A stretch of DNA of 64,000 nucleotides, taken from Saccostrea echinata (lineage: Eukaryota). The stretch covers positions 41,602,001 through 41,666,000 of the forward strand of contig NW_026889803.1 in NCBI RefSeq assembly GCF_033153115.1. Reading direction: 5' to 3'. Both the position numbers and the translations under genes were made by a program. The notes under the pieces were generated by a model. That model did no database searches and was not told the DNA's origin. It saw only the letters and a program-made list of their open reading frames with translations. This document shows positions 7,511 to 60,286 of the stretch, in pieces (within the stretch, counting starts at the first letter, position 1; every line of letters begins with the position of its first letter).

Positions 7511-9159
7511 TTCCAAAAACCTACAAAAAGTGTGCCCAACTGATTCCAAAATAATTATATCTTTTCAAATATCAGGACCCTTTGTTTTAAATTCTAAAAA
7601 CTGTCCATCTTTAAATGTTCTTCACCTTGCAATAATATAATTATTCTGTATATTCCTGTAACATACCTAGTACACCGGGGACATTTAGATGTTTATTGCT
7701 AGCCAGCGTCGCCCAAAAGAATTCGTCAGGGCTATATGTGTCATATAACCAATCTAAAATAACCTGAGCTTTGTCATCATTTATTGTATAATTCACAAAG
7801 CTCCAACTAAAAACACCATAAGCGCTTCCCTTTCCTACAGTGATGTTAAAAGATGGTGGGTCCTTTTTCTTTCCTGTTGCCTCCATTTTACCATTTTTCA
7901 CCGAGTAAGATTCATTGCATCGATAATATGATTACTCATCGTAAACGCTCTCAATGCTGCTAATGCCATTATAATTTTTCAAAATCTTAACAATTTCTGC
8001 GTTCGTTTTCAAGGGGTATACTTGGGATGGTAAATTGATGACATATTGCCATTGAATATCAGTTTGATTTAGTAAATCGGACATACAGTTTAAGTCCGCC
8101 CTTAGTCGGGAAAATCCGGCGTATACAACATCCTCTAATTTTGAAGCAATGAAAACATTGGGAAGGCAATTCGAGATGGATTCCAAGGCGTATAACAAAG
8201 TAGCATTGGAACGCTTGTCCACGTGTATACAATAAATATTATGTGATCGATAAATTGTTCGGAGCAATTTTTCTGTTTGGGTGGCATCCTTGTGAGTTAA
8301 TATTGTGTAAGCAATCGGTAAATCAAGCTCATCTTGGGATACGACGAAATTGTCATAACTATGTACTTCAAAGAAACTTTCACAGTTTTGAGCTAAATCT
8401 CCCATTTCAGTATCTGTTGGGAATTCGTATGTTCTGTGTGACATTGTATTATTGACCGCTGATATGTACTCTTCGTCCCCCTCAATTATTCGACGACAAT
8501 CAAAATCATGAACCACACTCTTAGGGCCTGACCTTAGAGGAACTGGAGTTGAGGGCTCGGAGGTGATATGGTAAAGTCTGTCTATTTGTTTGCATGGTAT
8601 ACTGATCATTCTGAATTCTATGTACCGACACATGGCAAAAATCACAGCGATAACTACACAACTTCCTAGAAAGTTCCGATATGTCAGAGTCATTCTTTTA
8701 GGGGAAACAACAATGCATGAATTTACAAAAAAAAAAAATCATAAAAAAATTCTTAGAGATATAATTTAATTTGTGTTTTATAAATTATTAAGTACTTTAT
8801 TACACATCAAAATAAAAAACCTAACACATTGCTTTATTCAATTTAGAAGACGCCATCTTCCCAAATAAAAAAAAACCCAGATCTCATTCAAAAAGTTTCA
8901 TTAACTAAGATTCACTTTTGATACATCAGCCAGTAACAGACTTTTTATGCGCTGTAGTGGGCAATGATATTGTAAAATCTACTACTGTTATAATAAAGCA
9001 TTAATGATTACTTTGTATAAAAAAAATTATATATTTACATCCCTTAATGATATTTTTGTGTGATTTTCACATTCACTCACGAATTTGTACTTAAATTCTT
9101 ATCAAAAATATATATTGTATTGAAAATTAATAACGATATAGCTATATAATAAATGGATG

Positions 9160-29422: not shown

Positions 29423-29443
29423 TATTGTATTTATTTAATATAC

Positions 29444-30025
29444 CTAGTACACCAAGGATATTTAAGTTTTTATTGCTAGCCAGCGTCGTCCATTCGTCAG
29501 GGCTATATGTGTCATATAACAAATTTAAAATAATCTGAGCTTCGTCAGTATTTATTGTATAATTCACAAAGCTTCCACTAAACACACCATAAGCACTTCC
29601 TTTTTCTATAATGATGTTTAAAGGTGGTGGGTCCTTTTTCTTTCAGTTAACTCCATTTTCGTGTTTTTCACAGTATAAGATTCATTGCATCTAAAATATG
29701 ATATATATTATCGTAAAAACTCTCAATACTGCTTCTGACATTATAAATTTTCAAAAATCTTAACTTAACAATTTCAGCGTTGTTTTCGAGAGTTTTACAT
29801 GGAACGGTAAATTTATGGCATATTGCCACTTAACGGCAGTTTGATTCAGCAAGTCAGACATAGGCAGTTAAGTCCGCTCTTAGTCGAGAAAATCCGGCGT
29901 ATACAACTTCCTCTAATTTTGATGCAATAAAAACATTGGAAAGATGTTTGAAATGGATTCCAAGGCGTATTACAAAGTAGCATATGTGAATACAATATAT
30001 ATTGTGTGGTTGATAATTATAAATA
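29444..30025 (-). pseudogene. GCNT copy 2: degenerate, 5'-truncated main exon
   Basis: HNIYCIH, VFIASKLEEVVYAGFSRLRADL, YSPDEWTTLASNK with multiple frameshifts; donor GT at 29443. Confidence 0.9.
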
Positions 30026-30454: not shown

Positions 30455-31360
30455 CTGCAAAAGATTCCCACTCCATTAGGGTTTCAATTAACAACGTATT
30501 TCAGCGTATCATTAACATAGTTTACCGTAGTAAATCAAAATATCAAATACAGTTCGTATACAGTTTGTATAATGATAAAATGTTAATATTCAGTTAAACG
30601 AGTGAGTTGCCAATCTTTTCAGTTGATAGATATAAAAACACAAAGTAAACAGAAACCTTCATTCTCTGAGAATTGTATTTTCTCGATCCACCAAGAATAC
30701 AAGTTAACTCTTTGTAAGGTTCATACTTCCAAGTGTTATCAATTTTGCAAATACATCATTTTTCTCTTTTTTTTTCTCTTTACCCCTTGCCATCTTAGAA
30801 GTAACGTTTCCTCATTCCATTTTTTAAGAATGAAATATTTTTTGAAATTATGTAGTATAGCAGATGCTCCTTGCGCATTTAGCAGTCAGACTATGCGTGG
30901 TCAGAAACCTTATTTAAGAACGTTTTTGTCTNNNNNNNNNNNNNNNNNNNNNNNNNNNNNNNNNNNNNNNNNNNNNNNNNNNNNNNNNNNNNNNNNNNNN
31001 NNNNNNNNNNNNNNNNNNNNNNNNNNNNNNNNNNNNNNNNNNNNNNNNNNNNNNNNNNNNNNNNNNNNAAAGCTTCAGAAGTATACAGTTGCAAGAAGGC
31101 TTATCTTTAGTAAGATTGTGTAGAAAAACTTGCTGCAAAATAATTTTTCGATGCCTAAGGGATGCTTTCCTGTGATAATCCTATACTTCAGTATTTCATA
31201 GAGGAGTCATATTGTCAAGGGGGAAAATGTGCATTTCAGCAGAATTTTAAAAGCTAGGCGCAATTTAAGGTGTCATTTGATAATGAATTATGGATGAGTA
31301 GAAAACCCGAATAACTTGAGTAGAAAACTTGAATAACTTATGTATATTCCTGTAACATAC

Positions 31361-32390
31361 CTAATACACCTGGGACATTTAGATGTTTATTGCTAGCCAG
31401 CGTCGCCCAAAAGAATTCGTCAGGGCTATATGTGTCATATAACCAATTTAAAATAACCTGAGCTTTGTCATCATTTATTGTATAATTCACAAAGCTCCAA
31501 CTAAAAACACCATAAGCGCTTCCCTTTCCTACAGTGATGTTAAAAGGTGGTGGGTCCTTTTTCTTTCCTGTTGCCTCCATTTTACCGTTTTTCACCGAGT
31601 AAGATTCATTGCATCGATAATATGATTTCTCATCGTAAACGCTCTCAATGCTGCTTATGCCATTATAAATTTTCAAAATCTTAACTATTTCTGAGTTCGT
31701 TTTCAAGGGGTAAACTTGGGATGGTAAATTGATGACATATTGCCACTTTATGGCTGTTTGATTCAGTAAGTCAGACATACAGTTCAAGTCCGCCCTTAGT
31801 CGAGAAAATCCGGCGTATACAACATCCTCTAATTTTGAAGAAATGAAAACATTGGGAAGGCAATTCGAGATGGATTTCAAGGCGTATAACAAAGTAGTAT
31901 TTGAATGCTTATCCACATGTATACAATAAATATTATGCGGTCGATAAATAGTTCGAAGCAATTTTTCTGTTTGTGTGGCATCCTTGTGAGTTAATATTGT
32001 ATAAGCAATCGGGAAGTCAAGTTCATTATTTGATACGACGAAAGAGTTATAATCATGTACTTTAAAGAAATTTTCACAGTGTTGAGCCAAATCTCCTATT
32101 GCTCTATCTGTCTGGAATTTGTATGCTCTCTTTGACATTGTCTCATTCACGACTGATATGTACTGTTGGTCCCCCTCAATTATGCGTTGACAATCAAAGT
32201 CATGAACGAGACATTTAGGGCCTGGCTTTAGAAGAACTGGAGTTGAAGGTTTGGATGCGATATGGTAAAGTCTTCCCATTTGTTTGCATGGCAAAGTAGT
32301 CATTCGGTATTCTATGTACCGACACATGGCAAAAATGACAGCAATAACTGCACACCTTTTGAGAAATTTCCGAAATGTCGCATTCACCAT
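31361..32390 (-). CDS. GCNT1: Core-2 beta-1,6-N-acetylglucosaminyltransferase-like (GT14/Branch) copy 3, main coding exon; spliced product 435 aa
   Basis: Uninterrupted ORF, type II TM anchor, FPIAYTIL, IYRPHNIYCIHVD, catalytic YSPDE. Donor G|GTATGT at 31360. Upstream acceptor TTTTTCAG at 32417. 1030+278 = 1308 nt in frame. The symbol denotes the family, not orthology. Confidence 0.92.
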
Positions 32391-32595
32391 TTCAGGAAAA
32401 ACAACAATGCATGAATCTGAAAAATAATAATTCAATATCAATTCAAATAATTCTTAAGGTGAAAAATCCCTCTGCTCTAAATTTCACTATTTTTTTTTTA
32501 TTTCCAACATTGATTTTCATCAACAACAATAGCATGAGATTCAAATGGAAAATAGTTTGAAGTATAAAGAGTTGCTACTTTTTCAGAAATTAATA

Positions 32596-40780: not shown

Positions 40781-41796
40781 GTAAAAGAATTTAAAAACAC
40801 ACATATATTTTCGATATACACATTTTCTTTTTTAGTCCCCTACCGGTGAAACCGGTAACTTTGAGTCAGATAGAGTGAAAACACATCTAAACACTTTGAC
40901 TTGTTTATCTAGACTGCCTATTCAAACATAGCATTGTATTGTAACGTTACCATAACGTCATACTAATGATGACGTAATAATAGAAGTATTACATGCACTT
41001 TAACGTTACATATAGGAAGATTTTTTCATCAACATACTCCAGGCCGCAAAATGTACAATAATCACAATTTACAATGATAGAAAATTCATATTTGGCTTTG
41101 TGTGTTTTTTTTAAAGATTAACTGTGGAATCTGATTCGCTTAGTTCAAAGGGATATAATTTTGTAATGGGTCGGTTTGATATGGTTCCGTTACTAAGACG
41201 TAAGAGTGCTTATCTTGTGAGTCCATCTCTGCCAGTTATGAGATCCACCACTACAGCAGTTTCCAATTGATGTGTTTTTTGCAGACATCATGGACTTGGA
41301 CAACATCTCCAATTTTGATTTTGTTGTATGTAGTTCCTGTCCTTCGGTGATATTGTCTCAGAGAAATAAGGTATTCTGACTTCCATCTGTTCCAAAAGCT
41401 TTGTAGAAGCTGAATTTGTCGTATTATAATTCATTTGCTTTATCATGATTTACTAGAGAGTTGTCGTTGGCATCCACTTCTTCAAAATAAGGTAGAGAAG
41501 TTAATCTTCTTCCATATAACAGCTGAGATGGTGTAAGCGGCTGTAAATCATCTTGATCTGTTGATATGTAAGTCAGCGGTCTGTAATTCAAAATTACTTC
41601 TATCTCCATAACTAAAGTGTGAAGAGTCTCCATATTTATCTTTGAACGTCCAAGAACTTTCAGTAAGGAAGTCTTAGTCAATCCTATTAATCTCTCCCAC
41701 CATCCATCATACCATTCCTTTGATGCATATTGAAAGGTTGTTGCATTATCTGAGATCATGATACTAGGCAGTGATCTCCTACTAATAAATCTTCTG

Positions 41797-42045
41797 ATTG
41801 AAATATATTGAGATGACGAACAGTATTCAATCTCAAATGTCCATTAAATAATACAAATTTTGGAGCAGAGCAAACACGGACCTCTAAAACATCAGAGGCG
41901 GGATCTGGTGCCATGGAGGAGTGAGCATCCCCTGCCGACCGGTCACACCCGGCGTGTGCTTCTTGACATGATCGGGAAAGAACGGAAAAATCCGTCGACA
42001 ATTCAGTGTGTAAATAATGGCCTAACAATAAGCATGAATGAAAGA
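41797..42045 (-). mobile_element. Penelope-like 3' fragment inserted in the Bel/Pao integrase
   Basis: Closely similar to 34777-35020; interrupts HLELV..RRFISRR. Confidence 0.8.
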
Positions 42046-43896
42046 ACTCTTCGTCAGGTTTGGTACTAACTCTAGGTGTAAAGCTCGAGATGATGCACAG
42101 GGAAAGAAGCATATTTATGCATTATAAATGCTCCCAATTTATCCTTGACATAAAGGGGTCCTGCAAAATCAATGCCTGTCATGGTAAATGGGGGTTTCAT
42201 CTGTAGATAGATACTCGCAGTAGTCCTTTGCTAATGGAGGGGGTTCTGGAGGTTGATATGATTTTCCAGTGATTTTTCTACAGCTGATACATCCTCTAAG
42301 AATCCCTTCCACACGATGTCGAATCCTTGGTATCCAGTATTGTTCATGAAGTAAGGTAATTGTCGAATTTAAACTGGCATGAGCATGCCTTTTGTGTGTA
42401 TCACCAACAATAAAATATGTCAATCGGTGGTCTGTAGGAAGAAGGTATGTAAATTTTGTTTTCTCCATCAGTGTTGCATTGTGTATTATTCCTCCACACC
42501 TTAAAAATCCATCTCTAGGAACAGTTTCAGCTGCTGAAACAATGTTGGTTTCCTTTCAGATGGATGTTTCAGATATTCTATTTCCTTTGTAAACTCTGTT
42601 CTCTGCACATCTTGTATGAGCAGTCTAATAGCTTCGCCTAATTCTTGTTTACTGAGAAATCCTAATCTTCTTCACTAGAATGTCTGCAGTTATGAATAAA
42701 TCTTCTATGTATGCAACAGCTCTAACCAACATTATGAGTGAACTTTTATCCTCAGGTTTCGTTACTGACTGTATACCTTCATGCAGTCACGGTATCTGCT
42801 GTTACTTGATCCTCTGCTTGATGATTCATATTACTCTCTTCTTCAGCGCTTGTGGAACAAAGTATTGCATTTGTTGGTCCATCTCATACAGGCCATTTCT
42901 TGGGTTCAACGAACCATGCTGCTCCATTCCACCAGAGAGTATCCTCTTTGAATTTCTTGAGGGTAAATCCACGAGTAAGATAGTTAGCAGGATTACAGTA
43001 TTTTTGACAATGCTGGCAAGTTGAAGATCCGCTAATCTCCCTAGTTTCATTTACTCTGTTTGCTACCAATCTGTTTGGTGATTTCTGTGACATGATCCAG
43101 TGAAGTATAATTTGACTGTCACACCAAAAGTAGATTTTGTTAACTCCTGTTATTTCTTTTACATGTTTTCCCAATTTTGCTCCAATAAGTGCTCCCATGA
43201 GTTCTAGTCTTGGAAGTGTGATCTGCTTAATTGGTGTCACTCGATTTTTTTGCCATAAGTAGTGTAATCTTGTTCTTTGATAACAAGTAAACACATGCAC
43301 CATATGCTTACTGGCTTGCATCAGAGAAAACATGCAATGAATCACCCCTACAATCCATCGAAGGACTGTTTTTTCTTTTTACTCTAATGTCTAATGCTTC
43401 ACAAATTTCTGATGATATTTCTCTCCATGTAGACTGCATAGACTTCGGCAGTTTTTCGTCCCACTTCAAATTAGTTTTCCATAACTCTTGCTTGAAAACC
43501 TTTGCCTTCACAGTTATAGGGATTTATAATCGAAGTGGATCAAATACCTTTGATGTTTCTTTCAATACTTCACGCTTTGTGGCTACAAGATCCTTCCTTT
43601 GTCTAATACCATTCTTTGCATATTGAAGAGTATCTTCTTGTGGATTCCATTTCATTCCAAGAACTTTAATGACAAGGTCTTCATCCGCTGTTTTTTCTGC
43701 TTTAGTTAACCTTTGTAGCATCTCACTGTTGGAGCTCCATGAACGGAGATTGAAACCTCCAGCTGCAAGTAAGGTTCTTGATTCTTTGTAGATTTTCATG
43801 GCTGTTTCCTAACTCTGAAAGCTGGCCAAAACATTGTCAACATAGAGATTTTGTTCAAGGAGAGATGAAATTTCACTGGCATTCTCTTGAAAATGT

Positions 43897-44438
43897 TTCA
43901 ATTAACAATGGTTATTTCTATTCTTATGTCTATACGATATATCTTTTCAATCGTCAACTTCCCTTACTTATGCAGTAATATACATTCATCATCTGCATAC
44001 GGGGTTTCTATCTCTCAGTTGATTCGATATTCATGCTCTACGTATGAACAATATCTAAAAAGAGGTAAGTTATTGATAAACAAGTTGATGAAACAAGAAT
44101 ATCAGCAGTCTCTTTTAAAGTCGTCATTTCGTTAAGTTCTATGGTCGATACAATGACCTTGTCAGCAAATACAATTTATCATTAAGTCAAATGCTGACTA
44201 ACGTTTTTCATACTAATTGTTAGGCCATTATTTACACACTGAATTGTCAACGGATTTTCCCGTTATTTCCCGATCATGACAAGGAGCACAGTGTGACCGG
44301 TCGGCAGGGGATGCTCACTCCTCCATGGCACCAGATCCCACCTCTGAAGATTTTGAGGTCGTGTTTGCTCTGCTCCAAAATTTGCATTGTTTAATGGACT
44401 TTTGAGCTTGAATAATGTTCGTCATTTCCATGTATTTC
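43897..44438 (+). mobile_element. Penelope-like fragment inserted in the Bel/Pao RT
   Basis: FSIVNFPYLCSNIHSSSAYGVSISQLIRY plus the 3' motif; interrupts SPFILTATLI..HF. Confidence 0.85.
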
Positions 44439-46894
44439 ATTAATCAAAGTAGCGGTGAGGATAAAAGGTGAACAAGTTGCTCCAAACAGGACAGATCGAA
44501 AGCGATAAGTTGTTTATGGACTCGATGGATCATTTGAAACATTCAACCAAAGGAATCGTGTTGCATCACGGTCTTTCTGGTTAAGTTCAATTTGAAGGAA
44601 TGTCTTTTCAATATCTGCTGTTACTTCAATCTTGTTTAATCTGAATCTGGTCAATATTGACGTGATGTCATTCATTACCGGGGAATATGGCTCAATGCAA
44701 TCATTTAGACTAACATGTCTTTTTTTTGTCCTTGCAGCTACAATCATACATAATTCTAATCGGAGTTGTAGTGCTGTCTTTTCTAACAGGGTGGTGAGGG
44801 ATGTAATGGACTCTATATTCTGAATTTTCTGGATCTTTAACTCTCTCAATAACTCCTTTGTTTTCTTGATCCTGGATTATCCCACTATACAGTTTTAACA
44901 GTTTTAAAATCCTTGCTAATCTCTGAATAACATTTTCTGGTTTTTTTTTTCACTATCTCATAATTTCTACGTAAGCAAGGAGAGTTTTCTTTCCAGGGAA
45001 TTTTAGCAACATAATGACCATCCTCTTTATCTATTGATATAGCAGCATAGTTCAAAAGCTTTTCCTTGCCTTTCAACTCTTCACTCTGATCATCAATTCC
45101 CATGGATTCTCTTTTCCAGAAATTTTCAAGATCAATTTCTTCCATTTTATGTTCAGCCAAAATATGAAACATTCCTGAATGTTGTTTTCCTGATGAGTTG
45201 ATAGGTCCAGATATTAATACCTAGCCTTTGATTCAACTGCAGTGGGTCCATTCCCTCTGATGATTTTGTCTCCTACTATGTTCCAGTAACAATCTGCGCC
45301 AATTACATTGAAATATGGAATTGTTCCTCTGTACTGACTGGGTGTGCCGATTTAATCCAGTTCTTTGATATTGACTCGTGATCTGTTGGAGATTGGAGCT
45401 GCAATCTTCGGAATGATGATGACCTCCATTGGAATTTTGTCTACAGTTTGTGTTTCTAGTTGTACAGTTGCTTTCTCAAGATGTCGAATTTCACTATTCT
45501 TGTCTCCAAATGCTGAAATTCTTAGGGTAATGGATCCATTTGATATAATGTCAAGTTTCTGTGCTAGCTCCTCAGTAATAAATGCATTTTGAGCCCCTTC
45601 GTCAAGCAATATATTACAGCTGATTTCTTGATTTCCATACCAAATTGGTGTCACAGCAGTTTTTAGTAGCACTTCAGAGTTGGCTGCCACCTGTTTTGAA
45701 GAGTGAAGCTGGAATGACTACTCTCGTTGACGTGGTTGTTTCGCTTGTGTGCTCTCGGAATTTGTGACAGTTCTCTCTGAGGGAATTGAGAATTTTTGCA
45801 GATACTTGTGTGATGAGACTTCTTACAATTGCTGCATTTGAAATGTGATTGACATTCATTTACTTTGTGTTTTCTAAAGTAATTGAAGCAGACTTTCTTC
45901 TGTTTGATGATCGATATTCTCTTATCATAATCTTGGATGTTATGGCAAGTTATTGTTGAATGATTTCCATTACAGAAGAAGCATTGCTTCACAGAATTTT
46001 CCAGTTTGTAAGTCGTTTAATGGCTTGACCCAGCAACAAAGTTAGTTGTTGGAATGAATTCCTGGGTTTCCTGTTTTGATTGTATTGCCTGTCCAGCATC
46101 TTGAACACATAGCTCCTTGTTATGGCTCTCCTCAGTGAATTCAATTCCCATTGATCATCTCCTTTGTCCCGGGTAATGTTCTTCCGGATATCTGCTGGCA
46201 GTTTGTTGTATATCATTGGAGTTAAAATTGTTCCATAGGTGGTTTTGTCAGTTCCTAGAGATTCTAATCCTATAATGCAACACTCCATTTTGTCGAAGAA
46301 GTTTCTCAAACTATCAGGATTAGACTTGGGATAAGTCAATTAAACTTGGTAAGTCAATTAAACTCTGGATATGGGAATCAATGATTCTGTGAATTTGTCC
46401 ATATCTCTCGAATAAAACATCTATTGCTTGTCTATAGTTGGTATTAGTCAAACTGAATACTGTTACAATGCGAAATGCTTCCCCCTATAACAGCGATCGA
46501 TTTCCGTTTGAATCTCCTCTTCATTCACTAATTCTTGTAGAATCTCGCTGTTGATTTTCTCTAATATGTCCCACTTCTCCTCCAGTACCTTGATCATTTC
46601 AGCTTTCCCATTTTCATTTTCATTCTCAGAAATTCTCAAAATTCTTGTAATTACTCCATGATGTCCTGAACGCATCGCCTTCAATTTGGATACATCCATT
46701 TTGCACATGAACTGTTATCCTGGTCACGACACCAATGTTGAGATTGTATAGTGGTTTGTTACTTTGAGTCAGAGAGAGTGAAAACACATCTAAACACTTT
46801 GACTTGTTTATCTAGACTGCCTATTCAAACATAGCATTGCATTGTAACGTTACCATAACGACATACTAATGATGACGTTATAATAGGAGTATTA

Positions 46895-47678
46895 CTTATT
46901 GTACTTTAATTACCTATTTACATTTGCAAATTTTTCTTTTATATAACACCATTAAAAGAAACGCGTATCTATATCCGTATATTTACATTTGCGAATGTTT
47001 TCTTTATATAACACTATTTCAAGCAACGTGTATCTATATCCCTATAAACACGGGTTCCTCGCGTCATAAACGTTCGACGTAATTTCTCAGTGACGTCATA
47101 AAGGGCCGACGTGCAATCAATGGATCAAATACATGCCGTTGAGTTTGAAAAATAAAACATTTCACGCGATAAAGATTGTAATCAGAAAAATATAAAATAT
47201 GAATAAGTCAAAAATGTAAATATAAGTAATAATGTATCATTTTTAAACATCTATCGGGATATAAATACGGGTTGGTACGAGATCAAATTTAACATAAAGC
47301 CCTTCGGGCTTTATGGAATTTGATCTCGTGACCAACCCGTATTTATATCCCGATAGATGTTTAAAAATGATACATTATTTCTTAAATAAACACAGGTTTC
47401 TCGCGTCATAACGTTCGACGTAATTTCTCAGTGACGTCAAAAAGGGTCGACGTGCAATCAATAGATCAAACTCATGCCGTTGAGTTTGAAAAAATAAAAC
47501 ATATCACGCGTTAAAGTTATAATCAGGCTAATATATAATATGAATAAGTCACAAATGTAAATATAAGTAATAAGGTATCATTTTAAAACATCTATCGGGA
47601 TATAAATACGGGTTGGTCACGAGATCAAATTCCATAAAGCCCGAAGGATAGGTGTTTAAAAATACCTTATTTCTTAAA
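46895..47678. mobile_element. Crypton-like palindromic element (two tandem units) inserted in the LTR
   Basis: Near-perfect hairpin 47228-47379 (~75-bp arms, CCC-TTC-GGG apex); unit 47045-47385 is repeated at 47386-47678. Confidence 0.6.
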
Positions 47679-50600
47679 TATAGGAAGATTTTCATCAACA
47701 GACGTTAAGTAATATTGTGCATTGTTTTCAGCAATTTCTACCAGCGAATACTTAATAAACTTGGCGAAATAACACCAGATGCAATGAAGAATGAATATTT
47801 TTCCCAATATAAATTTTTTTTGGTATGTGTTTGAGATAAGAACAACGAGTATCGTTTTCCATACGTAAGCAGTCGTGTTTATCGACAGTTGGGTTTTTCA
47901 CACTTAGTGATTTTATTGTCAAAAGGTTCGAAAACAACCCAATCCCCTGTTACAGGAAGTTTGTTTAACTCTCTTAGTGCCGCAGCGACATTTATGTCGC
48001 TAGAGAGTTCAATGCCACGGGGACATTTTGGTCGCCTGTCAGTTGAGTGCCAAAACGACACATATGTCGCATCGGAGTTAAAAAATAAAAGATAAAATAA
48101 ATGTTTATTTTCCTTAAAATTAATGATTTAGATTTTATAAATGATGAGAAATGATAAGTGCAATTTGTTCTCTCAAAATGACGTAAATTTTGTACGTTTT
48201 ATGACGTCATACATGTAATATGCAAATATTACGTAGAAGTTATAAAAGAAAATGTCATCTGATAGTAATGACAGCTATGCGACCGACAGCGATAGCGATA
48301 ATTATGTTGATGTTCTAGTCGGTAGAGTCAATCATGGCCCATGGTTTACGGTGGTGGATCCAAGATCTTTCACTATTTCAAGGCTGCCAGACTTTACAGC
48401 TGATCACGGACCAGTTGATTTTGAACCCAATATGGTGCCTTTCGATTATTTTGAAAAGTTTTTGAAAGATGAGGACTGCTGCATTTTGGACATTATTGTA
48501 GAAGAGACATACCGCTTTGCTGAAGAAAGTATGAATATCCGTCAGCGGACTCCATTTGCAAGAGAAAATAATTGGAAACCTGTTACCAAAGATGAAATGA
48601 GTGCTTTTTTTGGCCTTGTATTTGCGATGGGAGTCGTACGGAAACCAACTTATGCGTCATACTGGGAGAGAGGTTCCGGTGATCTTATAACAGAGACTCC
48701 AAACTTTTCTCAAGTAATGTCCAGAAACCGATTCCAAGCAATACTTCGATTCCTTCACTGCAACGACAATGCTCGGAATGTTCCAAGGGGGCGACCAGGT
48801 TTTGACCCGCTACATATAGTGAGACCAATCATCGACTTTTTCAATGACGTATTTGAAAAGAATTATAGGTATATTCCTTGATTTACTTGACTAATAATTT
48901 ATTATAAAGTCGGTAAAATTCTCGAATGCAAAACAGTAATAATACATACACTGTATTAATTTTTCATAATTATTGAATTTTTTTTTCATTCATTCATCCG
49001 ATGTCTTTTTAACATACATGAATGTATTGCCTAGTATTATTAACGAGTATATCGTTTTGCAGAATTAATAACAAATCTAGGCCCTATATTTGTTTTTGCA
49101 CAAATGCNNNNNNNNNNNNNNNNNNNNNNNNNNNNNNNNNNNNNNNNNNNNNNNNNNNNNNNNNNNNNNNNNNNNNNNNNNNNNNNNNNNNNNNNNNNNN
49201 NNNNNNNNNNNNNNNNNNNNNNNNNNNNNNNNNNNNNNNNNNNNNNCGGTTAACCGATTAATCGTTCGCAACGATGGTAATCGGTTAGGAAATCTGTAAT
49301 CGGTTAGTCGGAAAAAAATAAAAATATGTGTAAATATCCTTAAAATTAAATTTGCAAGTTAAAAAAAAATGAATGTTGATAAGTTATAGCGTTTTTACAT
49401 GCATGTATTTAGATATAATTTATTAGGACTCTTCGGACGGAGGTGTTGGGGTAATTGGTCAATTTGTGAAGTGTTAATTGCTGTTTAAACACCATGCCGT
49501 TACCCAGCTTGTCCTTCTACATGTATTTCTTTAATGATAATAATTAAATCACCGTTGAGTATTGTGAACTGATTACATTGTGTATCTTAATTTTGCAGTT
49601 ATCTGCCAATTTATATTTTTATGCAAATATTGTAAATCAAGTAATAGTTTAAAAAGGTTTGTTCTGAGCTTTTGAGCAGATTTTTGTCTTGACCTCTTTA
49701 AAAAAAAAAAATCGGCGTTATATTTTAGTTCTTATAATAAATTTGGATTCTACAATGCAAAATAATCTATATTCGATTATATCCCCATGATTTAATTGAG
49801 CTATGTGTGTAGATTCTAAAAATATACTTTGATAGCAGGATCCAACCTCCTTAAACTTTGTTTCTGTTTATGGTGATAATGCAGAATGACCGTATGTAAT
49901 GTTTGGGGTCGTCAGAAAGTTATCAATGTTTATTGGGAGGGGGTATGAATAGAAGTAATTTTTGGGAGTTGAACTATGTTCAATCTCCCTTGGTCATCAC
50001 GGGCTTTCTAAGCGCAGTAATTTGTATTGATTATATAGTGGCCGTCCGTGGGGCTTCTGTGTCGACCAATTTACTCCTGTGATATTCAATATAAACTTGC
50101 ATAAACGTCCGCCATAAAATAGTCCATTTCAATTTTCTGAATTAATCTAATTTTGATAAATGACATGAAACTAAATGCAATTGAATTTCATTTAACTTAA
50201 TTTGAATACTATATTTTGATTAAATTAAAATTGATCTATACAGAACTAAAAAAAAATGTTGAAAATTGTCGTCACGAACCTCCCTTGCAGCACATACAGC
50301 GGCACCTATAAACAATGAGAGGGAAATTAACGACAACTCTGCATATGTAACTATATGACTGCGCGAAACCTCTTTGCATTGACTAACGCGTGGTAAAAAT
50401 TATTTCACAATCAATGTTATACCTATTTTTTTAGCCATAAATATTCGAAGTTTTCAAATATTTATTTGGTAATACAGAATAAACAAATTACATGTACGTT
50501 GATTTGGATATAAATGAACAATTGTTCTTTTAATATTGAATCCTAATACGTTTAACATCGAAAAGGAAGAAAATCGAAGAGAAGGTGATTAACGTAAACA

Positions 50601-51010
50601 GAAAGGTGAAACTTTAAAATAAATTACTAGATTAAGCTTTTTGAGTTTTCAAGTTTTTTTCATGTTGTGGCATAAAATTTATAAGCATTTCACATATGAA
50701 ATTCTTGATAAAATAAGTCGGAACAGCCGAGTCTGACATTTGAACTACATGTACATGTAAATTTGAAGTGGGAAAAACAACAAATTATAACCGTTTACGT
50801 AAGATTCATATAACAAGCTGAAACTGCTTTTTTTATTGTTATTTTTCAAACTTCCAAACAATTAATAGTCATGTGAAGAAGGAAATAAACCATGGCAAAA
50901 TCTCGCAAATATTTCACCTAATAATTCTATGCTTCTAAGTACGTTAGGACAGACACAACTGTAAAGTCTATACAACTGTAAATGAATTTACCGTGCAGTG
51001 ATTTTCAGAG

Positions 51011-51450
51011 CAGAGTTGTCAAAATTTTTGAATCACTGTCAGACATTTGGTCTGACAGAGTCAAATGATCTGTTAGACTGGACAAAGATTTGTCAGACCA
51101 GATACATGCATCTTATTTTGTACGCTGGATCGCTGATAACGAGAAAAAATAATAGCACTTAAATAAGATGTCTTTTAAGTTTTATGATATTCGATTTCAC
51201 AAAAAATCCAATCTTATGATACAGAGTCTCTAATCAGAGACATGCTTTAACAATTTTGATCGACAATCGGCACCATACGGACGTTTTCGGCGTTTTGTGG
51301 CCCTTACCTAGGCACAGCGTTTTAGAAATTTGCATCACGTTCAATTTTTTAAACGGTCGTTTGGACCACTGTTTTCTTCAGTGTACGTTATCGGTCCAGA
51401 AAATTCCTTTCCGACCTTGCCGACATGACTGAGTGTTTTTGACCACTCTG
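51011..51450. mobile_element. Nested MITE with a 14-bp TIR
   Basis: CAGAGTTGTCAAAA ... TTTTGACCACTCTG. Confidence 0.6.
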
Positions 51451-52889
51451 CAGATAAGAATTACTTATAAAGAAAGAAGTAAATGTGTGACAATTTCAGA
51501 TGACATTAATTTTTAATCCTTAATTTCATGAATTTATCAGCATTCAGTGGGTCACGTGTACAACACTAGTACTGAACTTGAAAAATGTGTGTTACATTAG
51601 TTAATGCATTTCAACACGTCTGCATATAAAAGTGTATTGCAGTAGTACGTTATCATTAAAAAAGTTTCATTTGATTTTATTAATAAAACAGTTAAAATGA
51701 ATGAATACTGTAAGCCAATAACAAGATTTGTAAGTTTTTTTTAACAGTTTATTAAACAACCGTGATCGTATAGATTTTTAAATGCTTGTTTCTGAAATTT
51801 CACCAGAATAGACCAATACTCTAGTTGTAGCAAAAGTTTTAAAGATCCGTCCCAAAGATTCCCGAAGAGCGTAGAACTAAAACTCCAAAAGTAATAATTA
51901 AGGTGAGGTCCAAATAAATTAGAGTCCAAAAAGTATTCCAAACGAGTCAAAGAATAGAGTCATAGAATAGAATGCCGTTTTCCGGCAAAACAGGGTATTC
52001 ATGGTCCCGGATATAAAAGTACTTTTCATTGGCTGACTTAACATTACCATACCACCTACGCTTAGTCCGTAGGTCTGTCCGTTGACCTATGAACCCCAAC
52101 ATGGCACCACCCTCAAATGCAAGTAAACACTCATTACTAATATTTATGGGTTCAGTCCTCATCTCTACACCCCAGGAGTTCTAGCCCTAAGCTCTTTTAC
52201 TTATTTACTTCAAAGTTCCCAATTTTATTGCTCTTGGTCAAAAATCTTAATAATACCATTGCATTTCCGTTCAAATTTTATTACTTTCTATCGATGGGCT
52301 TGATTGGTCTATTCGGATCAATTTCAGTACAAAATGATTTACCAAATTATAGTACATTGGAACAACAACAAAATCCAATTTGTTTTAACAAGATAATAAT
52401 AGTTCATAAAATTAAAGTCCTTTTTCCAATTATAAAGTCACCGAATTTGAGGTACTAATAATATACATTCTGGTTTAATAAACTTTTATTTCATTTTACT
52501 TTCACTACTAATAACTAAAAATGATTATGATATTAATATTGTCTAAGTTTAAAATGTTCAAATAATATGTCTGTGCTAAACCCTATAGGTTTACAATACA
52601 TGCGTGTGCGGAAAAAAATAGCTTATTAAGACCAGTGATCGATATGTGAGAAAGATCTATCCTCATAATTACAACAGTTTTATTTCTTGCAATAATAGCT
52701 CGTTAGACTACACTTGATTTTTAAAAAATCAAAACAGATTCAAGTCGATCGTTTTAATTCATTGAAAGTTTGAAAAATTGTCCAGCTCAGCTATATAGTA
52801 TACCTGAAATTCAATTACACTGAAATTTGCATCAAATCAAAATCACAAATAGTAAATGTCACTCGCGTTGCACAGTTGTTCAAAATCGT

Positions 52890-53166
52890 TTGCTCTAGAG
52901 ATTCAAAGTAATGTGTTAATCATTCACGTCGTGGTTCGATTCCCACTGCGGTATGCGTTTAGAAACGGACCCTTCGGATGAGACCGTATAAACCGAGATC
53001 CCATTTCGCAGTAGATGCTGGCACCAAAAAAAAATCCCTCACTGCTCAATGGTTCTGAGTGTCCTGTATAGGTAAAAATTTGCAGCAGCTCTAGCCTCCA
53101 TTGGCAAGTGGTAGTGTCTCTTTATGAGTAAAAATTCTCGAAGAGATGTAAAACAAACAAACAAAA
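52890..53166 (+). mobile_element. tRNA-derived SINE (Deu/Nin-like), degenerate
   Basis: B box GGTTCGATTCCC; CTTCGGATGAGACCGTATAAACCGAG; (AAAC)n tail. Confidence 0.8.
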
Positions 53167-53759
53167 GGCAAAGTATTCAGAGATACTTACTTCTATATAG
53201 AAATTTCTTGACATGAAATTAAAAATTATGGGATTTAAAAAAAAAATACATAATGATTGAGTTATAAAGATAAAAACATTTTGATAGAAAAATTAAATAC
53301 AAAAATTCTTTAAAAATTGATTATTGTATCCGAAAAGAACCAGTTATACCCAAAAGATAATATCAACTGCTTGTTCCAATCAGAGGAAGAAAAAAAAGAC
53401 AATTTAGTGTCTGTTGATGGTAACAATGAAAATAAAAAGTGCCAGTTGGTTGTTGGCACCAAGGATCTTGTACATATTCAGAAGAGAGTAGGGAGGGCGT
53501 TGTGCTTCAAATGCTTTCATAGGTATTTGGAAATAAATTATAAATGTTCGAAAAATTAAAGAAAGGAGCCCAGAAGATAAAGATTTTATTTTCAGAAATT
53601 GGGATGAGCTGTATCAGCATGTTCATTAATATTTTACTGATTCATATATTACATCCAAATGACTTAAAAAGTTACGTTTGTCTTGAGAGAACTTTGCTGC
53701 AATAGAACCATTAAAATGCAAACCATTCAAAGTTGTGTTGATTCAGTTTGCTTAACAAA

Positions 53760-54633
53760 TTAAGACCGCGGAACATTAACTGGCAAAATTGGAAATATGC
53801 AACTTACATCATCTCCATCTGTTACTGTCAAAATGTTGAACGATAGACAATGAAATGGGTGGGTACAATTTGACACGGACGTCCGAGAAAACATTGGATT
53901 GAAATTCTAGTTTGAAATTCATTTGCAATCCACCTCAGCTACGTAAGAACGTACGGTGTTACTGATTAACCAAGAAGACAAATAATTTCAATTTTGGAAT
54001 AGTTTGAAATTTATATAAATCAGAATTTTCTGTCCAGTGTATGTAGAGAAATATATTTCTGTTTGGTATGTGTATGTGTGTGCTGGGAGGGAGGCCGGCT
54101 GAACGATCTTGGAATAAATATGAAAATTTTCTTTTAAATTGACAACCCCTCCCTGCTTTTGTTTATCAAACAGTTTTCAGTGAAGACAAAACTAAAAAAA
54201 GGTTTTTGTCATCCTAGAAATAAATATATTCTATCATGTGAAGGCATGATCTGACTCGACAATTTTTGCCCCCCCCCCCCTTCTAGAATCAAATGGCTGT
54301 CCCCTGAAAAAGTAATCTCTGTCTTCTTTTACTTTTACGTATCCTTAAAATTATAGCCTAAAGTACTCATATAAATATGAATGTCAAACAACATGTATTT
54401 GGGAATTGAAATCTTTCGGATCATACATTCACACTTTAGGTTTGAAAACAGCTCAGGTGGATTGAAAATGAATTTCAAACTAGAATTTCAATCCAATGTT
54501 TTCTCGGACGTCCGTGTTGAATTGTACCCGCCCATTTCATTGTCTCTCTTTAAACTTTATGATTGTAACAGATAAAAATTCAAATGACGTAAGCTGCATA
54601 TTTCTAATTTCAGTTAATGTTCTGCGCTCTTAT
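53760..54633. mobile_element. Element with ~180-bp terminal inverted repeats
   Basis: 53760-53940 is the reverse complement of 54450-54633, including ACACGGACGTCCGAGAAAACATTGGATTGAAATTCTAGTTTGAAATTCATTT. Confidence 0.75.
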
Positions 54634-54839
54634 ATTATATGGATACTATGTGAGAATTGGCTAAAATGAATTTTGGATATTTAATAAATTAAATAAATTG
54701 GGATTTAAGTTGAATGTATGTGCACAGGAAAAAAATCTTCATAATTGCAAAACATTGTTATTAATATTGTGTAGATTTAGAGACCCCTATGAGTTTGATA
54801 TCGCCATATTAATTTATGCGGACACATTTTTTTTCATGA

Positions 54840-55119
54840 CAGGCACGTAGCATCGGGGAGGGGGGAGGGGTCTGCCCCCCACTTTTTTCCAAACATGAAA
54901 TTTTATAAAATTTTAATATTGTAAATGTTCATGGAAAGTCCGCCCTCCCCCCCCCCCCCTACTGTTTGTTGCAGAATATTCAAATAAGGGTGATGTAGTA
55001 GTGTATGAGTAAAATTTGATACTGAAAGAAGTTTGAAACCTATCCCCACACCCAAAAAATATAATTTTCGAGTTAATTTTCGAGCCCCCCCCCCTTTCAA
55101 AAACGATGCTACGTCCCTG
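54840..55119. mobile_element. Short TIR element with poly-G/C subtermini
   Basis: CAGGCACGTAGCATCG ... CGATGCTACGTCCCTG; CATG on both flanks. Confidence 0.65.
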
Positions 55120-55504
55120 CATGGGAATATTAAGTGGTAAAAGTTTTTGAAAATCTGAATAAGAACAGCACGGTTAAAGTCATTAAAGTTACTCAGGTGA
55201 GTATTGTGGCCCAAGGTCTTCGTTATTCAAATGTTTTTGAAATTATTTCTAATGTTTGGTTTGCATCTCTGTCAAATCTGCAATAGTTGACTTATATCTA
55301 AAGCATGAAAAAAATGTTCCGACACTATAGCTTCTTTACTTCCTATTAAATCTTTCACATTACAATGTTCAACTCCCATGAGTACTTTCAGTACTTTGAT
55401 TAAAAACGATGTCCGGAAAAGAGTATTTTGTTACGATTAACCGGTTAATCGGTCGGAACGCCTTACGGTTAACCGATTGGCAATTCTGTATTCGATTGCC
55501 ATCC

Positions 55505-55507
<3 letters not shown>

Positions 55508-55592
<85 letters not shown>
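55508..55592. repeat. (AT)n microsatellite
   Basis: Direct. Confidence 0.98.
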
Positions 55593-55595
<3 letters not shown>

Positions 55596-58500
55596 CGAAA
55601 TTCATATTCAGTTGTGTCATATTTATTATCATTATTCATATAATTTTTTGTCTCTTGTTAAATGTTCCGTCTTTATGATAGACTTTTACAGAATGTTTGT
55701 ATTGATGAACGGATTATCGGATTCAAGGGCAGACATTTCCTGAAGCAGTGTATTGTGGACAAGAAGGTACATAGATGGGGAGTGAAGGCCTGGGTGTTAG
55801 CCGAGTCGCACACCGGTTACACACATCATGTCCAAATTTATCAGGGAAAACACAACAGCCCAAATCATCCACTTGGCCAAGGGTGTGTTAATTTAATAGA
55901 TGTGTATACTAAGTCTCAATACTAGTAAAATAATCGTATTTTCATTATGGCATATAATATGAAGCTCATATTTTAATTTTAAGAAATAATAGTATTTAAA
56001 AAAGCTATGATTACAACTATGCGTGTCAAAATGATAGCTAATGATGTAGGAGGATTAATAAACTCGAAAAAAAAAAATAATTAGTAGATGCGTTCAATGA
56101 AGTAAAGCGGGCGAGGTAGGTTTGCAAATTTTACAAATAAAGTATGGACTCCTTCCGCAATCATGTTATAAAAATAATATAACATACAATCGGAAATATT
56201 TTTAAGCAAATCGCTCTGTATATTTCATCAAAAGTCAATTTTTAATTTTTGGAAAGAGAAAGAAACTTGCACAAACATAAAGAGATTATCAACAAAAACA
56301 AATTCACAACATGTGGACAGCCCCTCCCCCCTCCAAAACATATACACCCCAAACCTTAGTATTTTTTTAAATGTTGTATTTCATACAACATTTCTATATT
56401 AAACATTTTACAATATCCAACATAGAAAGAACTCCAACAAAAAAGTAAAATTAAAATTAAAAATACTCACGGTATTGTATTATGAAATAGAACAGAAAAG
56501 TCACTTTGTTTTTTTATTTACATTAACCCCCCCCCCCCTTTAGGATATCGGACCTTAAAAATCATGTATACCTATACGTTATATGTCACCAAAATTTTAA
56601 TGTATCATCATATTTTGTTTCGGTTTTGTCTTTAACCATGCTGTCCCTACATTTCACTTTAATCACACTATTCATCTTCAAAGGTAAATTCTATAGTGTT
56701 AAAATATCAAATCATTCTTGTTAATACGCATGAAACCAGTCCTCACTATAGGAAGGAGAGGGGTGGCTTACATGCTGTTTAAGTTTTAAACACTTTTTTT
56801 GAAAACAATCCCTAAGCCTGGGTGTGCAGATATAGACTTTAAGGGGAGGGGGGGGGGGAGGTCCTGACCACAAGCACTTGTGAAGGCATTTCAACTATAC
56901 TTTTCAAGTGCAGAATTAGATCTGTGCAGCTGTATTAGAATTTTAAAAATAACTCGTTTAGTTTATAAAAAATAACTATCAAAATGATTTCAGATATAAA
57001 GTCGTAATGGATTTAATGAGACCACATTTTGGTAACCTACACCACGTGACCATTGACAGCTGGTTTACCAGTCCCAAACTTCTGCATAATTTAAGGGACA
57101 GGGGAGTTTTTGGCACAGGTACAGTTATTACTTCGAGGAAGGGAATGCCAGTTAGTTTTAAAGCTACCCGCTTGCCCAAGGGAGACATGATTGTGAAGTT
57201 GCAAGGTCCTGTACAGTGATCGGCGACAGGTGACCCTCCTCAGCACTACAGGAAGTTCCAGGTAGGTTTATCACATAAAATTATTATAATGTTCTAAAAT
57301 TGTTCACTGCATTTAATGATGTACATTTCATATATAGAATGATGCGAAAAGCTAACACCAAAGGAAAAAATTGTTAAAGCACCAGGAGTTGTGCACAAGT
57401 ATAACGAAACAATGGGCGGAGTAGATCTAGGTGATCAGCTTCTTACACAGTATGAACACCAGTTTCGTAGTCTCAAACTATGGAAGAAAATTCTGTTCAG
57501 TTTCTTTATGATGGCTGCAGGTAATACATATTTTGCAACATTTCTTGACTTTAAATTACTTCTCGCGAATATATATAGGACTCAAAAATACATGCATGTG
57601 CAACATGTATTAATGCTATTATGTATTATTTTACAAACCGTTACCTCTTTCAGTCAATGCCTACATCTGTTACAAGTCCTCCTTCGTGATACAGAAGAAA
57701 ATGGACCACTTACAATTTCAGAAAGAGATAATAAAGGGACTTTTGGGAAATTTTAGGGAAGGAAGATTAAGACGGGGACGACTTGGTGTACAGAGATGTG
57801 CTAGATTGTCTGCCAAACATTTCATAGACTGGATCCCTGAAAAGAAGCGAATGAAATGTGCTGTTTGTTCAGGAAAAAGAGGGAACTTTGCCGGAACAAG
57901 GATCCGTACTTGGTGCCCTGATTGTTCCGTCGGGTTGTGTGTTGGAAATTGTTTCAGAAAATTCCACACTCTTATTAATTACGAAGAATAAAATTAATTT
58001 TATATGGAATATATAATAATGAGTTTTAGTCATATTCAGTTACTACGTACTTGTATTTTGTTTGATTTCTCAATTACTTTTTTCACGTTACTTAGTTCTG
58101 AATTTAAAAAAATCAAGGATGAACTATTTAGCGAAGGTATTGTAATATTTCCAAAATTTTGACAATTTAATTTTTATTATACCTTCATGTTCATTGGTCG
58201 AATCTGACTGGTTGGAAGGCGTTTGTTACACTACTGCGTGCATAAACCACACCCTCCACAGGGAGACAATTCATTACAAAAAACGCCACTTCACTACTCG
58301 ATACAAGGAATACCCTATTAATTTAAAACGACTTGTTCCTCACTATTTTTTTTTTTACTTAAATTGCAGTTGTCGGGATTTCTCTGGTACTATATAATTT
58401 TCATAACTTTAGCAAACTACATAATTATGTAATAAATGTACTGGAATTTTATTCCAGATATTTTTTTTTCGTCACATTTATTTGAAAGTTACTTTTTTCA

Positions 58501-60286
58501 CATTTTGAAATAAATTTTTATGCAAGCAAATCTTATCGCACTTGCAAGATTTTACAATCTGCATTATTAGTTTTAGTCTTTTATAAAACGGGAATAAGAA
58601 ATTATTAAATTCCTTTTTGTTAAATTATTTGTGGAATGAATAATTTCAATTTTAAAAAAATGATCTATGTATGAGGATTAGGTTCCAAAATTCAGGAAGG
58701 GGTGTGCAAATCCAGATTCACTCCTGATAAAAAGAATTTATTCACGAAAATCATAATGATTGTCTGTTACGTTTAGGTACATGTATTTCGGTACGCAGAA
58801 CGTACAGACTACTATGACGTACTAGCGACGTCATAACGTGATTCTATTATAAATGGCACTAAGAGGGTTAATCAATTATCCAATCTCTAAAAATGCTGCT
58901 AATGGCAATAACTCCTTCTTATGTATATTCAGGCCTTTTCTTTATTGTACTTCTACTGTAAAATGGATTCTCTGATATTTAAAATTCAAGCATTTTTATA
59001 ACGAAGTTATCATTTTGGAACTTTCAACATCAGAATAATGTATTTGAACCAGTTTTTACATAATTTTTATTATACTAATTGCTAAAAGTGTACGATTTTT
59101 TATGATCACATATACTGTACAATTATTACTGTTCTTGAGGTCAATACGATGATTTAGACACCTGAGGAGTACAATATTCAAGTACAATATTCGGGCTCGG
59201 GTAATATTTCATTACCTTAAGTTCATTTTGAAGATTTTATACAAAACATAATGATTTTATTATCTTAACTTCTTTGCTACTCATCAGAAGAATGGAAATT
59301 TATTGGAAAGTGAACATTTAGGTAAAGAAATTTATTGCATCTCACCAGGAGCACTAGTGGAATGTACATATGCATGTGGATAACTTTGAAAGAAGCTTAT
59401 ATGACATGATATTGAAGATTCTTTAAATGGTTTTAAATTAAAATGAAGTAATTAAGGAAAATTATTGATTGCTTTTTGCTGGGAAGCTGTGGCTATGTAA
59501 AGGTTACATGAATTAATTTCAAATGCATTGGAGTTCAGAAGTGTCGAAATACAGTTAAAATATGATAGTTATTCATAATACCAATTGAAATAATTTAGAA
59601 TGAATATCTGTATGGAGACTGAATTGTAGTTTGCACTTTCTTGCATAATTTTTCAACGGATAATATTAATCTCACAATTTTGAAGACAAATAGCATTTTT
59701 TTCATAAACCTAATATAACATTCCTGTAGTAACGTTTTTCAAGTTGGGGGGGGGGGGGCTTGCTCCAAAAAGAAATGAAAAGTTGACCAGCCAAGAAATA
59801 AAACTGCCCAAAATCGAAATCCTGTTCCTATTGTGTATTTGTGTGTGTGTGTGGTGGGGGGGGGGGGGGGTCTGTAACTCTAACTTCTCGGAGACATTTT
59901 TTATATGCTGAAATTTGCCTGTGTTCAACCGTGCAGCAACAAAAAGTGGGGAGGGTAGAGGCAAGCAGCTTCAAAATGACAATTTACATAGTAAAACTAT
60001 ATATATCAAAAAGATATCAAAAAGACTATTCGCAGAAAAAAGGGGAGCAAGCCCCCCTCCCCCCTCCCCTCCCCACCGCGTACTGTGTAAGAAGTAAGGA
60101 CATATATGGACGTGCATGAAGAAATTTCCACACTATTAGATGCAGGGCAAAGTATATCAAACCAGTTAACCAAATGTTGAACAAAAAATTATCATTATAA
60201 AGTAAAACTGCACAAAATTTTCCTTGTTGATGTGGAGTCTATTGAAAAAAAATCGTAAATGCATGTATATGTCTGAAGGCAAAAGA

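What the first reader, a model, noticed from the sequence alone, without database searches (positions are those of the whole stretch)
47965..58871. Complete piggyBac transposon whose transposase has four spliceosomal introns
Seen: TTAA TSDs and 13-bp TIRs bracket five exons that splice in phase (NY-R-LLQNVCIDE; GQ-G-YKVVMDL; SS-R-MMRK; MAA-V-NAYIC), with all three catalytic Asp motifs and the Cys-rich C-terminal domain. Introns 3 and 4 are small (76 and 133 bp); introns 1 and 2 are large, and intron 1 holds a ~6.3-kb insertion. Known: canonical mobile piggyBacs have a single-ORF transposase, and the intron-rich relative PGBD5 is domesticated and lacks TIRs. Inference: a mobile, intron-bearing piggyBac lineage whose introns absorb nested insertions without breaking the CDS and could allow splicing-level control, as with P elements. 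This copy has two frameshifts. It lies antisense within the putative GCNT intron.
Basis: partly seen in the sequence, partly recalled or inferred. Interest (0 to 1): 0.7.

Follow-up and report, generated by a model that had tools for sequence, protein, structure and literature searches.

The report
Mobile piggyBac family with spliced introns
This is a broken copy of a piggyBac jumping gene whose enzyme gene is split by four introns; intact sister copies sit at other places in the same genome and RNA-like contigs join all four introns, so it belongs to a likely old mollusc lineage of mobile, intron-bearing piggyBacs, although introns in these elements have mostly been read as a sign of taming by the host.

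Summary
Confirmed and extended. Window 47965-58871 is a TTAA/13-bp-TIR piggyBac with five exons and four GT-AG introns. This copy is broken: -14 and +1 frameshifts, a changed left TIR, and a three-layer 6.4-kb insertion in intron 1. Seven more copies were found in the genome. Two (4,517 bp, TTAA at both ends, 99.7% alike) splice to an intact 537-aa DDD+CRD transposase. One of them sits in a tandem array where 12 of 14 units hold the empty single-TTAA site. Contigs of probable RNA runs join all four introns. Four further TIR-bounded or related families in this genome (41-56% protein identity) form one clade with mussel, scallop and abalone proteins. All share introns 3 and 4; the other introns differ, and one is shifted by 2 nt. 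One contig skips exon 2 in frame, removing the first catalytic Asp: a weak hint of a P-element-like repressor form. Precedents for mobile piggyBacs in the papers I read are single introns (Pokey, a salmon element). I found no published multi-intron mobile clade, but Repbase and Dfam could not be searched. New variant of a known kind.

The parts
47965..47968 (.). left TTAA
   Evidence: sequence; the flanking repeat family is cut off here
47969..47981 (+). left 13-bp TIR, one mismatch (position 2) to the right TIR and to sister copies
48252..48868 (+). transposase exon 1 (acidic N-terminus, DDBD1); 6-bp in-frame duplication relative to sisters
   Evidence: PF13843 E 1e-26
48869..55681 (+). intron 1, phase 2, 6,813 nt (445-456 nt in sisters)
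   Evidence: the 446-nt form is joined in one contig of run X4
49108..55508 (.). outer nested insertion: a high-copy non-coding repeat of about 1 kb set in a TA tract; its left end reads N in this window
   Evidence: 49247-49963 and 55390-55510 lie next to each other in 5 of 5 sibling loci; 1 of 4 siblings tested showed a terminal inverted pair, 1,009 bp apart
49959..55401 (.). inner nested insertion, 5.44 kb, HINE/Helentron-like by its ends (subterminal inverted repeat, T-run target); most relatives lack about 51709-52594, a likely third layer
   Evidence: 98% full-length twin on C46 and many 90-96% relatives; ends; HINE features from PMC7492417 passages
55682..55882 (+). exon 2, 201 nt, phase 2-2, carries catalytic Asp 1 (D212 in the intact sister)
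55883..56993 (+). intron 2, phase 2, 1,111 nt
   Evidence: the 1,098-nt sister form is joined in runs X1 and X4
56994..57261 (+). exon 3, catalytic Asp 2 (D292); 14-bp deletion after 57208 shifts the frame
57262..57337 (+). intron 3, phase 2, 76 nt; position shared by all five related families
57338..57520 (+). exon 4, catalytic Asp 3 (D394) and the fourth Asp (D397); one extra A in 57365-57370
57521..57653 (+). intron 4, phase 1, 133 nt; position shared by all five related families
57654..57991 (+). exon 5 with the Cys-rich domain (6 Cys, 1 His) and stop codon
   Evidence: PF13842 E 2.8e-5
58855..58867 (-). right 13-bp TIR
58868..58871 (.). right TTAA; 5 of 8 paralogues of the flanking repeat have TTAA at this place

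Best explanation
The window holds a disabled copy of a cut-and-paste piggyBac family whose transposase gene has four spliceosomal introns; intact sister copies and empty TTAA sites show that the intron-bearing form has moved, and it likely still can. How it works: the element is transcribed, the host spliceosome removes the four introns (shown by junction contigs of probable RNA runs), and the mRNA encodes a 537-aa DDD transposase with a Cys-rich domain (shown by translation of two sisters). That enzyme would bind the 13-bp TIRs and insert the whole element into TTAA (inferred from piggyBac biochemistry; not assayed). Because the element moves as DNA, introns ride along and are not purged, so they persist, change size, collect nested repeats and occasionally turn over (inferred from five families in one clade). 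The window copy has since decayed.
For: Intact spliced frame in 2 of 4 full-length copies, with introns that contain stops. Three sisters at different loci with different flanks. 12 of 14 units of a tandem array on C5 hold flank-TTAA-flank without the element. Junctions skipping 446, 1,098, 77 and 133 nt with GT-AG ends; three introns of family B joined in both studies. Window versus L013: exons differ at 2.25% of sites with 3 indel events, introns at 6.19% with 25; dS 0.046 and dN 0.017; L013 versus L016 12 synonymous and 2 non-synonymous changes. Five families share introns 3 and 4 at 41-56% identity, reproduced with an independent query; 11 single-ORF controls gave one spurious N-terminal intron and none at these sites. 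Catalytic motifs align with T. ni piggyBac and piggyBat chains (query P0003, 70% identical to the sister protein).
Against: Transposition was not assayed. The runs are only guessed to be RNA, are contigs, and come from 2 studies; intron 1 and intron 3 of this family each rest on one contig in one run. Copy number is low (8 places found, a lower bound). The window copy's own flanks do not rejoin into one target. The tree is a quick, midpoint-rooted one with SH-aLRT only. Introns in other molluscs are inferred from gene models, not from their DNA.
Confidence: 0.9

Rival explanations
1. A domesticated, PGBD5-like host gene that kept vestigial ends and was multiplied by segmental duplication.
For: Introns, purifying selection on exons and expression are all typical of domesticated genes; database models of relatives are named 'PGBD4-like'; the two C5 copies share a left flank inside a tandem array.
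Against: Homology between copies at different loci stops at the TTAA; empty sites exist; the DDD triad and Cys-rich domain are intact; broken copies are common; related families have their own TIRs and different flanks.
Confidence: 0.04
2. The gaps are insertions in a dead single-ORF element and only look like introns.
For: Intron 1 of the window copy is mostly nested repeats.
Against: Exact GT-AG joins in contigs; the frame is restored only by splicing; the same sites are used in families with unalignable intron sequence.
Confidence: 0.01
3. Added layer on the best explanation: splicing regulates activity. Skipping the symmetric exon 2 would give an in-frame protein without the first catalytic Asp that still binds the ends and represses transposition, as the P-element repressor does (P-element biology recalled, not read).
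For: Run X1 has a contig joining exon 1 to exon 3 (skip of 1,745 nt, GT-AG ends, depth 6.95 against 7.29 for exon 2 to exon 3). Exon 2 is 201 nt, phase 2-2, and holds D212. No copy with exons 1 and 3 but without exon 2 was seen among the 8 places found.
Against: One contig in 1 of 4 runs, 29 letters on the short side, 'between: not known'. It could come from a copy with a genomic deletion in that animal or be splicing noise. In family B intron 2 is phase 0, so the same skip would shift the frame, and families C1-C3 have other introns there: the feature is not conserved across the clade.
Confidence: 0.2

Closest known systems
Canonical piggyBac (T. ni IFP2, PDB 6X67; piggyBat, PDB 9C0F)
   Same: TTAA target, short CCC-starting TIRs, DDD(D) motifs and Cys-rich C-terminal domain; E 1e-36 and 1e-29 for the close relative P0003.
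   Different: Those are described as uninterrupted ORFs (PMC3902484 passages and supplement 2); here the coding sequence has four introns, five in families C1-C3.
Pokey (Daphnia; piggyBac superfamily)
   Same: Mobile element with a transposase intron shown to be spliced by RT-PCR (PMC3849761, one passage read).
   Different: One small intron of 68-84 bp; rDNA targeting.
Salmon piggyBac-like elements beside a herpes-like contig (Aswad and Katzourakis 2017)
   Same: TTAA, 13-bp TIR and a 750-bp intron (PMC5544889, passages).
   Different: One intron reported, others not excluded; the authors read it as domesticated. No shared positions could be tested.
PGBD5, PiggyMac, TPB2 (domesticated, intron-bearing)
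   Same: Several introns inside the transposase domain.
   Different: Single-copy host genes without TIRs; PGBD5 lacks most catalytic Asp and the Cys-rich domain (PMC3902484, PMC5381638 passages). Shared intron positions not tested.
TLEWI, intron-bearing Tc1-like elements of pteriomorph bivalves (bioRxiv 10.1101/656579)
   Same: Bivalve DNA transposons with 2-5 spliceosomal introns, low copy number, variable intron sets (abstract and section 14 read).
   Different: Another superfamily; TLEWI lack TIRs and were proposed as domesticated, while these keep TIRs, TTAA and empty sites.

Membership tests
piggyBac superfamily, mobile | TTAA target site duplication | tested here: met
   TTAA at both ends of the window copy, L013 and L014; empty single-TTAA sites in 12 of 14 array units. 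The window copy's own flanks do not rejoin.
piggyBac superfamily, mobile | short TIRs beginning CC(C/Y)T | tested here: met
   13 bp, perfect in L013 and L014, 12 of 13 in the window
piggyBac superfamily, mobile | PF13843 core with DDD triad | tested here: met
   D212, D292, D394 (and D397)
piggyBac superfamily, mobile | C-terminal Cys-rich domain | tested here: met
   PF13842 over cut-off; 6 Cys and 1 His
piggyBac superfamily, mobile | dispersed copies with different flanks | tested here: met
piggyBac superfamily, mobile | transposition activity | not testable with these tools
   needs an excision or integration assay
canonical single-ORF piggyBac-like element | uninterrupted transposase ORF | tested here: not met
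   four spliced introns
PGBD5-type domesticated gene | single copy without TIRs or TSD | tested here: not met
   8 places, TIRs, TTAA
PGBD5-type domesticated gene | intron positions shared with PGBD5 | not tested
Pokey | phylogenetic placement with Pokey; rDNA target | tested here: inconclusive
   no Pokey sequence in the tree; no Rfam family in the C5 array stretch L087 or in L013
HINE/Helentron (inner nested insertion) | subterminal inverted repeats, 3' palindrome, T-run target without TSD | tested here: inconclusive
   seen by eye at the ends and compared with PMC7492417 passages; orientation and palindrome not tested further

The most novel reading that the evidence does not exclude
An old mollusc-wide clade of fully mobile piggyBacs keeps 4-5 spliceosomal introns, gains, loses and slides them while staying selfish, and in this family uses in-frame skipping of exon 2 to make a catalytically dead repressor, a P-element-like splicing switch not described for piggyBac.
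Probability: 0.2. Interest if true: 0.75.

Novelty: new variant of a known kind. Interest (0 to 1): 0.5.

Why it matters
Pavelitz et al. 2013 (supplement 2) knew only three piggyBacs with introns in the transposase, all domesticated, and left open whether PGBD5 had introns before it was tamed. A mobile clade with 4-5 spliced introns shows that introns are no sign of domestication in this superfamily and can come first. It gives a small natural series for intron turnover in mobile DNA: two introns kept at 41% identity, others differing, one shifted by 2 nt with junction support on both sides. Mining that keeps hits over 250 aa (PMC13461360) would likely miss these elements, whose longest exon is about 205-240 codons, so intact candidates such as L013, L014, L023, L024, L027 and L028 are likely untested enzymes native to molluscs.

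Tried and rejected
No run on record as RNA was listed; all six were guessed RNA contigs. GCNT setting: tblastn of the Branch-family exon found only the three window copies and nothing in 40 kb beyond the right edge or 20 kb beyond the left; a non-coding first exon cannot be found this way. Empty site for the window copy: not found, flanks are two unrelated repeats. Second gene in the 3' region: no conserved frame among six families. Mosaic test: divergence from L013 and L016 is fairly even along the element, no switch point. Rfam: 0 hits in L087 and L013. Teratorn papers (PMC5601938, PMC5822658): passages searched, no statement on transposase introns found. The careful tree did not finish; the quick tree was used. 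Literature: nine searches found no description of a multi-intron mobile piggyBac clade; PMC10813416 and PMC13461360 have 0 occurrences of 'intron' and 'exon' in the main text, their supplements were not read, and Repbase and Dfam are not searchable here, so such families may be catalogued there. No structure or complex was predicted.

Full report
Observation. The element runs from TTAA 47965 to TTAA 58871 with 13-bp TIRs that match at 12 of 13 positions. Five exons (48252-48868, 55682-55882, 56994-57261, 57338-57520, 57654-57991) are separated by GT-AG introns of 6,813, 1,111, 76 and 133 nt. Exons 1-4 match PF13843 and exon 5 matches PF13842. Against the sisters this copy has a 14-bp deletion in exon 3 and one extra base in exon 4, so it cannot make the full enzyme.

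Sister copies. Searches with exon 1 and exons 3-5 found the family at 8 places including the window (a lower bound). L013 (C22) and L014 (C5) are 4,517 bp with TTAA and perfect TIRs at both ends and are 99.7% alike; the window copy is about 96% like them. Both splice to an open 537-aa frame (exons 611/201/282/182/338; introns 446/1,098/77/133; phases 2, 2, 2, 1), and every intron contains an in-frame stop. L016 (C12) is full length with a 1-bp deletion; four others are truncated or internally deleted. The protein has D212, D292, D394, D397 and a Cys6-His C-terminus; the close relative P0003 aligns at these motifs with T. ni piggyBac and piggyBat chains.

Mobility. Similarity between loci stops at the TTAA. 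L014 lies in a tandem array of near-identical units of about 2.2-2.65 kb; of 14 occurrences of its left flank, 12 continue through one TTAA into its right flank and 2 continue into the element. The flanks of L013 are adjacent in 3 of 5 paralogous repeats examined. The window copy differs: its left and right flanks are two different repeat families, each cut off at the TTAA, which points to a later deletion or recombination at one end (inferred).

Splicing. Logan contigs of four probable RNA runs (2 studies; RNA is a guess) laid on L013 join all four introns with GT-AG ends: 133 nt (X1, X4), 77 nt (X1), 1,098 nt (X1, X4), 446 nt (X4). X2 and X3 showed no joint. The X1 contigs match L016 at 7 of 7 checked sites and the window at 5 of 7, have no gap where L016 or the window are broken, and so come from an intact-like copy, not from the window copy. 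X1 also has one contig joining exon 1 to exon 3 (1,745 nt skipped, 29 letters on the short side); this is in frame and removes D212. X1 shows no exon 1-exon 2 joint.

Selection. Window versus L013: exons 36 of 1,600 sites (2.25%) and 3 indel events, introns 97 of 1,568 (6.19%; about 90 positions around the insertion point left out) and 25; dS 0.046, dN 0.017. L013 versus L016: 12 synonymous, 2 non-synonymous. This fits a transposase kept in function along most of the family's history.

A clade, not one family. A PF13843 search listed 123 matches, many single long ORFs and many partial. I fetched 20 further partial loci and 20 single-ORF loci. A spliced aligner run on 10 elements gave: family B (L023, L024 intact, own perfect 13-bp TIRs, 56% identity) with introns at 203.2, 270.0, 364.2, 425.1; families C1-C3 (L027, L028 intact with TIRs; L040, L041 with one frameshift, TIR pair not found; 41-42%) with introns at 219.0, 258.1, 364.2, 425.1, 487.1; family A (this one) at 203.2, 270.2, 364.2, 425.1. 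An independent query gave the same introns in 4 of 4 elements; 11 single-ORF controls gave one spurious N-terminal intron and none at these sites. Contigs join family B introns 2-4 in both studies, so the 2-nt offset of intron 2 between A and B has junction support on both sides; sliding or separate gain cannot be told apart. In a quick IQ-TREE of 59 rows, A, B and C1-C3 group with 8 mussel, scallop and abalone proteins (SH-aLRT 99), apart from all 20 single-ORF elements of the genome; another spliced element (L038) falls among single-ORF elements (midpoint root, no bootstrap, no PGBD or Pokey rows). In 30 database gene models, 14 of 70 ends of missing stretches lie within 2 residues of a family-A intron against 2.5 expected (one of the 14 comes from P0167, which by eye matches family B itself); two mussel models lack exactly exon 2 and one lacks exon 3. 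This suggests, without their DNA, that mussel relatives have the same introns.

Nested insertion. Intron 1 holds a repeat of about 1 kb, split by a 5.44-kb element with a 98% full-length twin on C46; most relatives lack an internal 0.89 kb. Its ends look HINE-like (PMC7492417 passages). Whether this copy was ever spliced across the enlarged intron is unknown.

Comparison with print. Pavelitz 2013 (PMC3902484; passages, section 5, supplement 2 whole) states that only PGBD5 and two ciliate piggyMacs have introns in the transposase ORF. Bouallegue 2017 (PMC5381638; passages) lists introns only for domesticated genes. Pokey has one spliced intron (PMC3849761; one passage). A TTAA/13-bp-TIR salmon element has a 750-bp intron (PMC5544889; passages). 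TLEWI are intron-bearing bivalve Tc1-like elements without TIRs (10.1101/656579; abstract, section 14). Passages only were seen for PMC5601938, PMC5822658, PMC10813416, PMC10294476, PMC13465315, PMC9587614 and PMC13461360. Nine searches found no multi-intron mobile piggyBac clade; Repbase, Dfam, subscription papers and unread supplements may hold one. Automatic gene models named 'PGBD4-like' already splice relatives. That other DNA transposons (P, Ac, En/Spm, Tc1) carry introns, and that P uses splicing to make a repressor, is recalled, not read. An earlier AI note of this scan reports a five-intron piggyBac in an annelid without RNA support; it is a lead, not evidence.

Verdict. Real, mobile by genomic evidence, spliced by contig evidence; enzyme activity and regulation untested. 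It works like a piggyBac and is a member of the superfamily, but not of the single-ORF type and not a PGBD5-type gene. New variant of a known kind; interest 0.5.

Noticed in passing
window 31341-32453, 7647-8741, 29428-30019 (minus strand): Tandem Branch-family (PF02485, GCNT-like) coding exons: two long copies 89% alike, the lower one with a premature stop, and a degenerate partial third; three further paralogues on C41.
   Followed up: partly
window about 40855-46917 and 20049-23471 (minus strand): Two decayed BEL/Pao-like LTR retrotransposons by their gag/pol fragments and paired direct repeats; family label recalled from the motifs.
   Followed up: no
window 46915-47650: Repeat with 341-bp direct and nested inverted repeats just left of the piggyBac.
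   Followed up: no
L038 (G000:C9:12065500-12075499): A separate TTAA/TIR-bounded piggyBac of 5,437 bp with about three introns at other positions, grouping with single-ORF elements: a likely independent intron gain; intron ends are uncertain.
   Followed up: partly
L036, L037 (G000:C33:24027500-24035499; C5:12229500-12237499): Further piggyBacs whose PF13843 match is split near profile positions 96-102, a possible third intron-bearing lineage.
   Followed up: no
G000:C5:6360400-6398200 (L014, L015, L087-L089): Array of more than 99% identical units of about 2.2-2.65 kb with no Rfam hit in L087 and no ORF over 93 aa in the unit scanned; two units carry this piggyBac at the same TTAA.
   Followed up: partly
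window 53817-54573: 148-nt inverted repeat pair (84%) inside the nested element.
   Followed up: no
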